Assembly: GCA_964388035.1 (NCBI GenBank)
Contig: CAYLZE010000010.1
Location: 79,909-93,664, forward strand
DNA: 13,756 bases
Direction: 5' to 3'
DNA from: an uncultured archaeon
Lineage (GTDB): Archaea > Asgardarchaeota > Lokiarchaeia > Sigyniarchaeales > SOKP01
The notes below the pieces were generated by a model. It saw only the letters and a list, made by a program, of their open reading frames with translations. It was not told the origin of the DNA and did no database searches. Position 1 is the first letter of the stretch; each line of letters opens with the position of its first letter. A program made the position numbers and the translations under genes. This document shows, one piece after another, positions 7,581 through 10,223 of this stretch.

Positions 7581-8354
7581 TTAGGATTCTTTCTTCGAAT
7601 TAAAACCGCCAATATGATTGAAAGTTAGTCGACACGCAAAATATGCCAAAAGTGTCCCAGCTATCTCATCGATGATATAATGTTGTTTAACAAAGAGCGT
7701 GGATAATATTACCCCAAATGCAATAAAAGTACTGATAATTGCTATTATCTTGTAAAATGTAGTCGAATGCACTTTATAATTTCTATACCAAGTATAAGCC
7801 ATGCTAACCGAAATGGATGCGTGGAAGCTTGGAAAACAATTGAAAGAGGTATCAAAACGGTAATATGAATACATCAATTGCGCCCAGTAATTACCGGAAT
7901 ATGAGCTTTCTTCTGCAAAAAGTTGCACCCTCCACCAGTAAGTCGATACCGGAAAAATGATATAAATAATCAATGAAATCACCCCAATAAAGATCAATGC
8001 CCAAGCGAGGGGATATCCTTTCTCTGGAGAGATAAAAACAAAATAAAAAAAAGTATAGATAATCATGACTACAACTAAATAAACGTAAAAGATTGCCATC
8101 GCTGGAACGAAGGGGATGAGATCATCTAAATCTCCAAAAATAAAATCTAAACGATAGCCTGTCCCTTCGGGATATAAGTTGCCTGTCCAAGTATATCCTA
8201 TTTCCATTATTAATACAATAAAGACACCCACAATAAGGATCAGATCTAAAATTATGAATGCCAATTTCCTCGACCAATTCGAGGCTTTCTCTTTAAAAAA
8301 TACCTTCTCTAAGTATAGTTGTAATTTATCTACAATTTTTATAAAAAATGCCAT
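7581..8354 (-). CDS. PAP2-superfamily membrane protein (inositol phosphorylceramide synthase/PAP2_3-like)
   Basis: About six TM segments. Contains C2 motif NCFPSFH and C3 motif STLFVKQHYIID, with no C1 KxxxxxxRP motif. Confidence 0.85.
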   Translation of the reverse strand: MAFFIKIVDKLQLYLEKVFFKEKASNWSRKLAFIILDLILIVGVFIVLIMEIGYTWTGNLYPEGTGYRLDFIFGDLDDLIPFVPAMAIFYVYLVVVMIIYTFFYFVFISPEKGYPLAWALIFIGVISLIIYIIFPVSTYWWRVQLFAEESSYSGNYWAQLMYSYYRFDTSFNCFPSFHASISVSMAYTWYRNYKVHSTTFYKIIAIISTFIAFGVILSTLFVKQHYIIDEIAGTLLAYFACRLTFNHIGGFNSKKES

Positions 8355-8998
8355 GAGTTAATCATTTAAAAGGAAATTCAATTAATTTTATATAAGAAAA
8401 TTGTTAGAAATTAATCTTGATAATAATCTAATAATTTTTTTGGAAAAAATAAAATTCTACCATTAAGATTTAAATCAAAATCCTATTTAAATAAAGCATT
8501 TTCATAATTAATATTTAAACGAATTCTATTTCTAATGCTGGAATGGAAATTAAGCCCTTAAAATTCAAGCCAATCATAAAGTTAGGAAATAAATCTAAAC
8601 CGGGGTTCATTCGAGATTAACTTTTAAGAAAAAATAGTTTGGTTATTCTTGCTTCAGTCATGAAGATTCTAAGGAGTCTTTTCAGATTCTTCACACCCTC
8701 ACTATTTATTAGGGAATAAATTATTATGTAGAAATATTGAATGGGGAAGAATATCAAGAATACTTAAAATTGTATAAACAATTAATGAAAAAATGGGACG
8801 ATTTTAGTAAAAAAAAGAAAACCTGAAAGCAAAATAAATAAAGGTGAAAAATTATTTGCTGCATTTCATATTATTCTTCCCATCAAAGAAATTCAAGAAG
8901 CGCGATTCAATAGAATGTGGAAAAAAGAGTGAGCGAGGAATGATGATGCCATTTTATATAAGAAAATTAGTAGAAAATGGATATTTTTTTAAAACCAA

Positions 8999-9118
8999 GA
9001 TTTCCCTCAGGCACCCTGGATTTTTGTTTTTTGGTTGGTGTAGAGATCCTACGCCGGTATTTTATCTTTTTCCTTTTTTAGTTTATGACCTTCTTATTAG
9101 GTTCGCCTGAGGGAAATC
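8999..9118 (+). ncRNA. Candidate ~120-nt structured RNA (unknown family)
   Basis: Perfect 14-bp terminal inverted repeat GATTTCCCTCAGGC/GCCTGAGGGAAATC. Internal hairpins 9034-9058 (4 G-U pairs on + strand) and 9087-9103, U-rich linkers, and a TATA-like TTTATATA at 8953-8960. The strand call is tentative. Confidence 0.45.
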
Positions 9119-9234
9119 GCCTTTTGCATGGCGAGATCTTGATCCTGCAATAAAATTCTAGACTCAAAATAATCCCGAGTAAAATTGAAAAAAACTTCTA
9201 AGTTATTCTCATTTTTATAACTTTACACGAAATT

Positions 9235-9253
9235 AAGAAAAAAAGAAAAAAAA
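9235..9253 (-). terminator. Oligo-U terminator downstream of the histone gene
   Basis: The minus strand has two T runs separated by a C (TTTTTTTCTTTTTTC) about 70 nt after the histone stop, resembling an archaeal U-tract terminator. Confidence 0.4.
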
Positions 9254-9321
9254 GTGTATAATTTTTTCCCGATAAGTGCTTTTAGCTGACTTTCTTAGCG
9301 GGTTTTAAGAATATGCTGATT

Positions 9322-9534
9322 TTATGCAAAATATTTAATCGCCAAAAGAATGTCTTCCCTAGTAACCTTCTTTCTCTTGCTGTGTTTTGTTAAATTAAGA
9401 GCCGTTTTTGTTATTTTTTCTGCTGAACGGGTCAGCCAATCAATTAACTCATCCACAGCATCTCTGGCAACGATAATCGCACCATTATGCTTCATGAGTC
9501 TGCGGATTGGACTCCATGAAATATATTCGGACAT
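9322..9534 (-). CDS. Archaeal histone (HMf-like single histone fold), 70 aa
   Basis: MSEYISWSPIRRLMKHNGA..VARDAV...A..L.KHSKRKKVTREDI.LA follows the histone-fold pattern. The start is placed at the ATG at 9534 because the listed GTG at 9552 overlaps a GGAGG SD-like site. Confidence 0.92.
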   Translation of the reverse strand: MSEYISWSPIRRLMKHNGAIIVARDAVDELIDWLTRSAEKITKTALNLTKHSKRKKVTREDILLAIKYFA

Positions 9535-9625
9535 TTTTAATACTTCCTCCACTAATTTTTTTATTCTTTTTTTACTAATTATTTTTTATTAAAATTGCTT
9601 ATTAAGTTAAGTATTGTGTTTCATA

Positions 9626-9643
9626 TATTTAAAGATTTTGGTT
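9626..9643 (-). promoter_or_regulatory. Putative BRE/TATA promoter of the histone gene
   Basis: The minus strand reads ACCAAAATC-TTTAAATA(TAT) about 90 nt upstream of the ATG. The AT-rich background lowers specificity. Confidence 0.35.
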
Positions 9644-10223
9644 GTATCATGAAAATTGAGAGAACAAAGTGAAAAAAATTTAACGACAAAAATCGAATCT
9701 TAGAAAAGGATCGATATGGTGCAAGTTAACACTTTTTCATCAAATTGCCCATTATTTTAAGATTTGGCATTTTTTTAACGAATCTCTTGGAAATTCTTCT
9801 CTAATTCATTATCCAAGATAAACTCTCAAAAGAAAAAGGAGATTTTGTAAAATTGTGAGATGCTGAAATCAAGATTTTTATAGCATTTCGAACTAAAGAA
9901 AAAATTTTTTTCTTTTAAAAATTATTGCTTCAAAAGATAAAATAAAAGCATGACTAGTGATTAAAATCTTCATATTTCAAAACTTGGAAGACTTCCGTTG
10001 AATATTTGTTTCCTTTTTACCCTAAAGTTCTCGGAAGAGAAAACGAAAAAATGTGGATCGACTTACTCTGAAGGTTAGCTTCAAAATTTATCTGTTTTAT
10101 TTTTGTATTTTTATAATTCTTCGCAGTTAACTTTGAAATAGATAATAAATTTATGGTATAACAAATTTATCTTGGTGAAAGATTATTATTATTAACCTCA
10201 TTTGGCTGGTAAACATACGAAAA

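What the first reader, a model, noticed from the sequence alone, without database searches (positions are those of the whole stretch)
8999..9118. Candidate novel ~120-nt structured RNA downstream of the histone gene
Seen: in an AT-rich intergenic region, a GC-enriched perfect 14-bp inverted repeat (8999-9012/9105-9118) closes exactly 120 nt. Inside are a 10-bp hairpin (9034-9043/9049-9058, loop AGAUC) whose 4 G-U pairs form only on the + strand, and a 5-bp/7-nt-loop hairpin (9087-9103) abutting the closing helix. Two long U-rich linkers join them, and TTTATATA lies ~40 nt upstream. I see no 5S rRNA, tRNA, SRP or C/D-box motifs. Inference: an undescribed archaeal small RNA whose architecture (paired ends, pyrimidine-rich loops) recalls Y/vault/snRNA-type RNAs.
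Basis: partly seen in the sequence, partly recalled or inferred. Interest (0 to 1): 0.75.

Follow-up and report, generated by a model that had tools for sequence, protein, structure and literature searches.

The report
New structured small RNA family, Lokiarchaea
The 120-base hairpin-closed element is one copy of an apparently undescribed, strongly conserved small RNA gene family found in two families of Loki-type Asgard archaea; its invariant U-rich centre resembles the site where Sm proteins bind eukaryotic snRNAs, but what it does is still unknown.

Summary

The element is not a one-off. The genome holds five copies. A covariance model found it in 123 of 131 sampled genomes of the same family, listing 1-18 copies each. 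A model retrained with divergent copies found it in 10 of 14 genomes of a sister family. I did not find it in the other families of the order or class, nor in the 38 genomes sampled from 23 other Asgard families.

All 25 base pairs show compensatory changes (95-99% paired, against 32-47% when partners are slid). G-U pairs outnumber A-C by 98 to 16, so the window's + strand is the folded strand. Conservation ends at NCCUUU(U) just after the helix. Each family keeps one copy at a conserved chromosomal position. I found no conserved ORF, target-site duplication, Rfam match or paper.

The centre, UUUUGUCUUUUGG, is nearly invariant. The window copy is a young paralog with one C-to-U change there.

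I read it as a trans-acting RNA-protein particle, probably bound by an Sm-like protein (inferred, not shown). Rivals are a base-pairing sRNA, a ribozyme or aptamer, and a mobile element.

The parts
8953..8960 (+). TATA-like box (TTTATATA), the probable promoter of the RNA, 39-46 nt before the closing helix
   Evidence: Read from the sequence. Across 69 copies, TATA-like matches are enriched 45-70 nt before the helix and depleted at -35 to -15. Syntenic copies share AAGATAAAAATTTAAA about 65 nt upstream. The promoter role is inferred; no transcript data.
8994..8998 (+). Conserved A-rich 5' flank (ACCAA; family pattern AAnnAW)
   Evidence: Positions -6 and -5 are A in 77-84% of copies, and -2 is A in 87%.
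8999..9012 (+). P1 closing helix, 5' arm (GAUUUCCCUCAGGC)
   Evidence: Perfect 14-bp complement of 9105-9118. All 14 pairs show compensatory changes across 73 copies.
9013..9036 (+). J1/2, the invariant U-rich junction strand (ACCCUGGAUUUUUGUUUUUUGGUU). It contains the AUUUUUG Sm-site-like heptamer (9020-9026). The family's C at 9028 is U in this copy.
   Evidence: CTGGATTTTTGTCTTTTGG is identical in nearly all f1 copies. UUUUGUCUU(U)UUGG is kept in both families. Own-genome variants are listed.
9037..9055 (+). P2 hairpin (GGUGUAG / loop AGAUC / CUACGCC)
   Evidence: All six conserved pairs covary and the loop sequence is free.
9056..9086 (+). J2/3 pyrimidine-rich linker. It is (U)UGAUUU + CCUCCUCCCC in canonical copies and U-rich here. 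In the sister family it is partly folded into an extra hairpin, P2b.
   Evidence: Alignments; folds of f2 copies.
9087..9103 (+). P3 hairpin (5 bp, 7-nt loop UCUUAUU)
   Evidence: All five pairs covary. Some copies replace it with a longer hairpin.
9105..9118 (+). P1 closing helix, 3' arm (GCCUGAGGGAAAUC)
9119..9125 (+). Conserved 3' tail N-C-C-U-U-U-U (GCCUUUU), the probable transcript end
   Evidence: C 88%, C 85%, U 75-88%, then composition falls to background; 64 of 68 copies have a run of 3 or more T here. The terminator role is inferred.

Best explanation
Window 8999-9118, with about 20-45 nt of leader and the 3' tail to 9125, is one of five paralogous genes in this genome for an apparently undescribed structured small RNA of about 125-170 nt. 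The family occurs in two families of Loki-type Asgard archaea.

Proposed working: it is transcribed on the + strand from its own TATA-type promoter and ends at the U-run directly after the closing helix. It folds into a long terminal helix (P1) and two or three hairpins (P2, P2b in the sister family, P3) around a large U-rich junction. The near-invariant junction strand (A)UUUU(U)GUCUUUU(U)GG is the functional centre. I propose it is the docking site for a protein, most likely an Sm-like (SmAP/LSm) ring. The RNA would then act in trans as a stable particle, with P1 sealing and protecting both ends.

Shown: the gene family, the fold, the strand, the boundaries of conservation and the phylogenetic spread. 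Inferred: promoter and terminator use, action in trans, and a protein partner.

My odds: about 0.9 that it is a real, selected, structured RNA gene. About 0.55 that the core works mainly as a protein-binding platform. About 0.3 that the partner is an Sm-like protein.
For: Copies and spread:
- Five copies in the genome.
- Found in 123 of 131 sampled genomes of family f1, in 12 of 13 genera.
- With the retrained model R3, found in 10 of 14 genomes of family f2. Closed f2 genomes hold at least 2-5 copies each.

Fold:
- 25 of 25 pairs have double-sided changes. 95.1% of cells are paired, against 69.6% when shuffled and 32-47% when slid.
- Across both families, 98.7% are paired.
- The same helices come out of a MAFFT plus RNAalifold run that was not fitted to the model.

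Strand: G-U/U-G 98 against A-C/C-A 16. The model scores 109 bits on the + strand and 11.7 on the - strand.

Gene-like organisation:
- Conservation ends at NCCUUU(U).
- TATA-like boxes are enriched 45-70 nt upstream.
- One copy sits at a conserved locus across genera in f1, between a small membrane-protein gene and a radical-SAM gene.
- Another sits at a conserved locus in f2, between PFK and a THUMP-domain gene.
- Young duplicates carry the whole promoter-to-terminator unit.

Core:
- The 19-mer is identical in nearly all f1 copies, and UUUUGUCUU(U)UUGG is shared by both families.
- It lies between P1 and P2 and contains AUUUUUG.
- From established knowledge, RAU4-6GR between stems is the eukaryotic Sm site, and archaeal SmAP rings bind oligo-U.
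- The genome encodes 3-4 LSM-domain proteins.
Against: - I had no transcript data, so expression, ends and abundance are unproven.
- The 19-25 nt of invariance is more than an oligo-U-binding ring should need.
- LSM gene counts are the same in lineages with and without the RNA, so there is no co-occurrence signal.
- Thermodynamic folding does not mark the core as specially unpaired (0.51 against 0.47).
- Internal T4-T5 runs should themselves promote archaeal termination.
- The window copy has a C-to-U change at 9028, a position otherwise almost invariant. It has no counterpart at the same locus in the sister species, so this particular copy could be decaying.
Confidence: 0.5

Rival explanations
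1. A family of 'sibling' base-pairing regulatory sRNAs. The invariant U-rich strand, or the C-rich CCUCC linker, would be a seed that pairs with A/G-rich stretches of mRNAs such as Shine-Dalgarno regions. This could work with or without an Sm-like chaperone, as with bacterial Hfq-dependent Qrr-type paralogs. It overlaps the best explanation if a chaperone is involved.
For: Several paralogs per genome share an identical unpaired segment while their helices drift. The genome uses GGAGG/GAGGT Shine-Dalgarno motifs at -16 to -8. Canonical f1 copies carry GCCCUCCUCCCC, and the 3' tail (U/A)CACCUUU resembles an anti-SD sequence.
Against: I found no target with strong complementarity. Hits to the complement of the core are at background level, apart from the genes' own antisense strand. 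The C-rich linker is not conserved in the window copy. In the sister family it is sequestered in hairpin P2b. A 19-nt invariant seed is much longer than known seeds.
Confidence: 0.22
2. A catalytic or ligand-binding RNA, either a self-cleaving ribozyme or a free-standing aptamer. The conserved junction nucleotides would form an active site or binding pocket.
For: The pattern is typical of ribozymes and aptamers: conserved unpaired junction, covarying peripheral helices, free loops and variable helix insertions.
Against: No Rfam ribozyme or riboswitch model matches, even at E<=10. The junction is almost purely U-rich, which is unusual for known pockets. The RNA is not placed in 5' UTRs: downstream genes are 200-1000 nt away or convergent.
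Confidence: 0.07
3. A non-autonomous mobile element (MITE or other selfish repeat). The 14-bp inverted repeat would be its terminal inverted repeat, and any RNA-level function would be incidental.
For: Copy number varies from 1 to 18 per genome. Several copies abut contig ends. The window copy is absent from the orthologous spacer in the same-genus genome. One divergent copy lies on a contig that IMG/VR classes as viral.
Against: - The two arms change together across copies while the interior stays fixed. Independent decay after insertion would not do this.
- The strand asymmetry of G-U pairs points to RNA.
- No target-site duplications: the flanks are a conserved AAnnAW and NCCUUU, not direct repeats.
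- Young duplicates share 80-250 nt beyond the 'TIR'.
- One locus is stably syntenic in each family.
- No transposase gene recurs next to copies; the only recurrent neighbour outside the syntenic loci looks by eye like a leucine-rich-repeat protein, not checked against any library.
Confidence: 0.05
4. A cis element of the neighbouring histone gene, such as a 3' UTR structure, a bidirectional terminator or a processing signal analogous to U7-dependent histone 3' end formation.
For: It lies about 200 nt downstream of the histone-fold gene, which is on the opposite strand. The core AUUUU(U)GUCU resembles the U7 Sm site AAUUUGUCUAG (my recollection, not tested).
Against: The folded strand is opposite to the histone mRNA. 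The other four copies in this genome, and the syntenic copies elsewhere, have unrelated neighbours. The orthologous histone locus in the sister species has no copy.
Confidence: 0.02

Closest known systems
Sm-class snRNAs of eukaryotes (U1, U2, U4, U5, U7)
   Same: A small stable RNA with a single-stranded AUUUUUG-type heptamer set between helices. Both exist as multiple gene copies, each with its own promoter, and end in a U-run. Sm-fold proteins are encoded in the genome.
   Different: No Rfam snRNA model matches. None of the functional boxes of any snRNA are present. The invariant stretch is far longer than an Sm site. Detectably restricted to two families of one Asgard order, so there is no sign of common descent. 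Sm binding is untested.
Sibling (multi-paralog) Hfq-dependent sRNAs of bacteria, e.g. Qrr1-5 (from my own knowledge)
   Same: Several paralogs per genome, each with its own promoter and terminator. They share an identical unpaired segment while the stems differ. An Sm-fold chaperone is present in the cell.
   Different: Here the ends are sealed by a 10-14-bp terminal helix around a 3- or 4-way junction, rather than a row of hairpins. No targets were found. The host is archaeal.
Y RNAs (eukaryotic, and bacterial YrlA-type)
   Same: About 100-130 nt, with 5' and 3' ends paired in a long stem, a pyrimidine-rich internal region, a 3' U-run and several paralogs.
   Different: No TROVE/Ro gene in the genome (the control rang in Deinococcus). 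No conserved bulged Ro-binding helix: P1 varies freely in sequence and is bulge-free in most copies. No tRNA-like module. No Rfam match.
SmAP/Lsm-associated sRNAs reported in Sulfolobus and Haloferax (from my own knowledge; papers not read here)
   Same: Archaeal small RNAs with U-rich tracts that co-purify with Sm-like proteins.
   Different: Those are heterogeneous sets defined by pull-down. To my knowledge none is a structured family defined by covariation with an invariant core.

Membership tests
Any Rfam 15 family | Match to the family's covariance model at or near its gathering score | tested here: not met
   0 matches at gathering score on the window. Only chance-level hits at E<=10 on 8350-9650. 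0 matches at E<=1 on four canonical-copy loci.
Y RNA | A Ro60/TROVE protein encoded by the same genome | tested here: not met
   PF05731 has no match in G000 (96.7% complete). The control rang in Deinococcus and Bacteroides.
Y RNA | Terminal stem with a conserved, bulged Ro-binding helix | tested here: not met
   P1 has no conserved sequence beyond its outer G-C and A-U pairs, and no conserved bulge.
Vault RNA | Major vault protein encoded by the genome | tested here: inconclusive
   PF01505 has no match, but the control genomes were also silent, so the search is uninformative. The Rfam Vault model did not match.
Sm-class snRNA / Sm-bound RNA | Single-stranded RAU4-6GR site flanked by helices | tested here: met
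   GGAUUUUUGU lies at 9018-9027 between P1 and P2, and AUUUUUG is invariant in f1 copies. In f2 the site reads UAUUUUGU. The last position is U, not R. This is a sequence match only.
Sm-class snRNA / Sm-bound RNA | Physical assembly with an Sm/LSm ring | not testable with these tools
   LSM-domain genes are present. Their number does not track the presence of the RNA.
Sm-class snRNA / Sm-bound RNA | Homology to U1, U2, U4, U5 or U7 | tested here: not met
   No Rfam snRNA hit at E<=10.
MITE | Copies bounded by the terminal inverted repeats and flanked by target-site duplications | tested here: not met
   The flanks are a conserved AAnnAW and NCCUUU, not direct repeats. Recent duplicates share 80-250 nt outside the repeat.
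MITE | Arms that match a transposase's ends and do not co-vary between copies | tested here: not met
   All 14 P1 pairs have compensatory changes. No transposase gene recurs next to copies.
5S rRNA | Match to RF00001 and the helix II-III / IV-V arms | tested here: not met
   No Rfam hit. The arms are short hairpins joined by long U-rich linkers. There are up to 18 listed copies per genome.
Archaeal H/ACA or C/D box sRNA | ACA box 3' of the lower stem, or conserved C (RUGAUGA) and D (CUGA) boxes forming a K-turn | tested here: not met
   The 3' triplet is N-C-C: the third position is C in 85% of copies and A in 3%. AUGA at the 5' end is part of P1 and reads AUGG in f2. CUGA after P2 reads UUGA in f2. 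Judged by eye on the alignments.
Sibling base-pairing sRNAs (Qrr-like) | Several paralogs sharing an identical unpaired segment | tested here: met
   Five copies in G000. At least 4 in G038 and 3 in G048, all with the same core.
Sibling base-pairing sRNAs (Qrr-like) | Conserved complementary sites in target mRNAs | tested here: inconclusive
   Whole-genome scans for the complement gave only background-level hits. Short seeds cannot be assessed in an A/T-rich genome.

The most novel reading that the evidence does not exclude
Loki-type Asgard archaea assemble an Sm-like protein ring on a dedicated, structured, multi-copy small RNA through a canonical AUUUUUG site between helices. That would be a prokaryotic Sm-class RNP, built like a eukaryotic snRNP core, in the lineage closest to eukaryotes. 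It would be either a precursor or a convergent counterpart of snRNPs.
Probability: 0.12. Interest if true: 0.9.

Novelty: new variant of a known kind. Interest (0 to 1): 0.72.

Why it matters
Very little is known about non-coding RNAs in Asgard archaea. My paper searches found nothing describing this RNA, and Rfam 15 has no model for it.

This RNA family has textbook covariation. It is present in nearly every sampled genome of two Loki families. It is multi-copy, and its core is more conserved than most protein genes.

That core looks like an Sm site, which gives a concrete way to ask what archaeal Sm-like proteins bind in the closest relatives of eukaryotes. The question should be testable now. 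Three closed genomes of the sister family carry the RNA, and one of them, at 6,035,313 bp, has the size I recall for the cultured Lokiarchaeum ossiferum. That identification is from memory and was not verified.

Even if the Sm idea fails, the family is ready to be made into an Rfam-style model, and it would improve annotation of these genomes.

Tried and rejected
- Small ORF. The core reads PWIFVFWLV in one frame, and many copies start with ATG at the helix. But ATG is present in only 50 of 75 copies and falls in all three frames (19/19/12), so it is not coding.
- Pseudoknot between an upstream AAAUAGGG motif and CCCUAUUU in the linker. The motif occurs only in some genera and is absent from others with the same linker, so I dropped it.
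- Second copy in the same spacer. The 17-bp imperfect repeat at 8744-8881 is not a family member by the model with filters off.
- Viral carriage. Three of the four IMG/VR hits to the 19-mer are weak model matches with no family structure. One was inspected and lies antisense inside a 999-aa ORF. One hit is a real but divergent copy.
- Empty-site test for mobility. Flanks between species of one genus are too diverged, and only one downstream gene aligned.
- Protein partner by neighbourhood. The syntenic neighbours give no RNA-binding clue except THUMP: a 4-TM protein, a radical-SAM enzyme, PFK and a THUMP protein.
- Protein partner by co-occurrence of LSM genes. No signal.
- Accessibility of the core from partition-function folding. 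Uninformative.
- K-turn, H/ACA, C/D and tRNA-like acceptor/CCA readings, checked by eye on the alignments. None fits.
- 16S rRNA 3' end comparison. No SSU rRNA is assembled in this MAG.

Full report
**1.

The window has a perfect 14-bp inverted repeat, 8999-9012 GATTTCCCTCAGGC with 9105-9118 GCCTGAGGGAAATC, enclosing exactly 120 nt. It is the only fully complementary repeat of that length within 200 nt anywhere in the 13.7-kb window.

The two inner hairpins, the AGAUC loop, the four G-U pairs and the TTTATATA box at 8953-8960 are all as described. The segment has GC 0.40 in a spacer of 0.15-0.33.

It folds to -41.1 kcal/mol (z -4.85). The reverse strand folds about as well (z -5.54), so energy alone does not choose a strand.

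The spacer lies between a PAP2 gene (7581-8354, - strand) and a histone-fold gene (9322-9552, - strand). ARAGORN finds no tRNA. Rfam 15 gives nothing at gathering score and only noise at E<=10.

**2. It is a gene family, not a single hairpin**

BLAST and nhmmer find four more copies in the same genome, on contigs C87, C9, C75 and C208, at about 75% identity. Their closing helices differ in sequence but stay complementary. For example, GATTTCCCCCATGC pairs with GCATGGGGGAAATC, and GACTCTCCTAAACC pairs with GGTTTAGGAGAGTC. The interior is conserved.

A covariance model built from three copies (R1) found 1-12 copies in 23 of 24 genomes of the same family. After retraining on 73 copies (R2), it found the RNA in 123 of 131 genomes of that family, in 12 of 13 genera, with up to 18 listed copies.

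The 19-mer CTGGATTTTTGTCTTTTGG is identical in almost all of these. Among 400 genomes of the phylum, the exact 19-mer occurs only in that family and one genus of the sister family; two-mismatch hits elsewhere are at about the control's level. Record titles in the public collection name the hosts 'Promethearchaeota archaeon' MAGs, for example Loki_b32. This agrees with earlier notes of this scan that the genome is Lokiarchaeial.

A third model that included the divergent copies of that genus (R3) then found the RNA in 10 of 14 genomes of the sister family f2. It found none in families f3-f7 of the same order or class. In 38 genomes from 23 other Asgard families it found only one marginal hit, E 0.007.

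Listed copy numbers are lower bounds. In closed f2 genomes the exact core occurs 2, 3 and 5 times, and most of the extra sites fold as full members that the genome search had not scored.

**3. The fold is under selection, at the RNA level, on the + strand**

On the 73-copy alignment all 25 pairs show compensatory changes. 95.1% of cells are paired, against 69.6% after shuffling partners and 32-47% when partners are slid by 1-3 columns. No shuffle in 500 reached the observed score.

On the alignment spanning both families, 98.7% are paired and again all 25 pairs covary. These alignments were fitted to the model. As a check, a plain MAFFT alignment of 20 copies with RNAalifold recovers P1, P2 and P3, with double-sided changes in 15 of its pairs.

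G-U/U-G pairs number 98 and A-C/C-A only 16. The model scores 109 bits on the + strand and 11.7 on the - strand. The folded molecule is therefore the + strand transcript, convergent with the histone gene.

Loops are free. Some copies carry extra hairpins after P2 or a longer P3. The own-genus copies C75 and C208 have a ~30-nt insertion after the 5' arm. These are the expansions typical of a structured RNA.

**4. It looks like an independent transcription unit**

Conservation stops at N-C-C-U-U-U-(U) directly after P1 (C 88%, C 85%, U 75-88%). After that the composition is background, and 64 of 68 copies have a run of three or more T at this point.

Upstream, positions -6, -5 and -2 are A. TATA-like boxes are enriched 45-70 nt before the helix and depleted at -35 to -15. 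Syntenic copies share AAGATAAAAATTTAAA. This predicts a start 15-40 nt before P1, which is inferred and not shown.

There is no conserved ORF. An ATG at the helix start exists in 50 of 75 copies and falls in all three frames.

**5. Stable gene or mobile element?**

In f1, 24 loci from many genera share the same neighbours: a divergent ~130-aa four-TM protein upstream and a radical-SAM enzyme downstream. In this genome that is the C75 copy.

In f2, six loci from three genera lie between a phosphofructokinase gene and a THUMP-domain gene. So each family has an anchored copy plus dispersed paralogs.

Young paralogs in two genomes share 235-370 bp, that is promoter, RNA and terminator, not just the span between the inverted repeats. 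I saw no target-site duplications and no recurrent transposase. The only recurrent neighbour outside the syntenic loci looks by eye like a leucine-rich-repeat protein.

Three of the four viral-contig hits to the core are weak model matches without the family's fold, one of them shown to lie antisense inside a 999-aa ORF. One is a real divergent copy on a 224-kb contig.

The window copy is one of the dispersed paralogs. The same-genus genome has the PAP2 and histone genes but no copy between them. Uniquely among the five copies here, the window copy has U instead of the near-invariant C at 9028. Its helices are intact, so it is young, still selected, or both.

An empty-site test for the mode of spread failed because the flanks are too diverged.

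**6. What is conserved, and what that suggests**

Across both families the constant parts are the junction strands:
- (A)UUUU(U)GUCUU(U)UUGG between P1 and P2;
- UUGAUUU after P2;
- a pyrimidine-rich run before P3.

In f1 the middle linker is single-stranded GCCCUCCUCCCC. In f2 the same region is half of an extra hairpin, P2b.

The first junction strand contains AUUUUUG between helices, which is the form of the eukaryotic Sm site. The genome has 3-4 LSM-domain genes.

I therefore favour an RNP in which this strand is a protein platform, with an Sm-like ring as the leading candidate. The weaknesses are plain:
- The invariant stretch is longer than an Sm site.
- LSM gene number does not track the RNA.
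- Folding thermodynamics do not single out the core as open.
- Nothing here measures binding.

The main rival is a Qrr-like set of sibling base-pairing sRNAs. The genome does use GGAGG/GAGGT Shine-Dalgarno motifs, which CCUCC could mask. But no complementary targets stand out, and the C-rich tract is neither universal nor always unpaired.

A ribozyme or aptamer fits the pattern of a conserved junction with covarying helices, but has no other support. Readings as a MITE or as a cis element of the histone gene are contradicted by sections 3-5.

**7. Comparison with known families**

No Rfam family matches, including on canonical copies.

- Y RNA: no TROVE gene and no conserved bulged stem.
- Vault RNA: no Vault repeat, but that search had a silent control.
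- snRNAs: only the Sm-like heptamer is shared.
- 5S, H/ACA and C/D: defining boxes or arms are absent.

Full-text searches for Asgard or Lokiarchaeal non-coding RNAs, for Sm-like/snRNA, and for L. ossiferum transcriptomes returned nothing describing this RNA.

**8. Verdict**

This is a real and apparently undescribed structured small-RNA gene family of two Loki-type families. Its architecture is sound and its function is unknown. The window copy is a recent paralog.

The most interesting reading still open is a prokaryotic Sm-class RNP. I give it about 0.12.

Noticed in passing
window 8744-8881: A second closed element in the same spacer. An imperfect 17-bp inverted repeat (82%) encloses 104 nt. 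The - strand folds at z -3.0 and contains UUUAUUUUGCUUUCAGG, faintly like the family core. The covariance model does not recognise it (best 7.7 bits).
   Followed up: partly
window 9118-9133: A small hairpin, CGCC-UUUUGCAU-GGCG, overlaps the 3' tail of the RNA. It is not conserved in other copies.
   Followed up: no
L005:2551-2702 (-) and L004:2568-2718 (+), i.e. G000 C75 and C208: The own-genus syntenic copy and one paralog carry a ~30-nt insertion after the 5' arm, with a duplicated CCUGGAU motif. In C75 the insert contains a CUUCGG hairpin.
   Followed up: partly
G000 contig C148, about 8550-8672: A possible decayed relic. UCUUUUGGUUAG is followed about 85 nt later by GCCCUCCUCCCCCUAUAU, with no closing helix.
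   Followed up: no
L232, L233, L234 (G038) and L235 (G032): Closed genomes of the sister family hold several full copies that the genome-wide model search did not list, because only about 125 candidates per genome were scored. Copy numbers from those searches are therefore lower bounds.
   Followed up: yes
Alignments A6 and A7; window 9018-9030: GGAU and GUCU can form a 4-bp mini-hairpin with a UUUU loop. In f1 GGAU lies 5' of GUCU, and in f2 it lies 3' of it. The complementarity is kept but mirrored. There is no covariation to test it.
   Followed up: no
whole genome G000: About a quarter of long ORFs have GGAGG/GAGGT-type Shine-Dalgarno motifs peaking at -16 to -8. No SSU rRNA gene is assembled in this MAG.
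   Followed up: partly
L236 header (G048 contig 1): One sister-family genome that carries three copies is a single 6,035,313-bp contig. That is the size I recall for the cultured Lokiarchaeum ossiferum. If so, the RNA can be tested in culture. The identity was not verified here.
   Followed up: no
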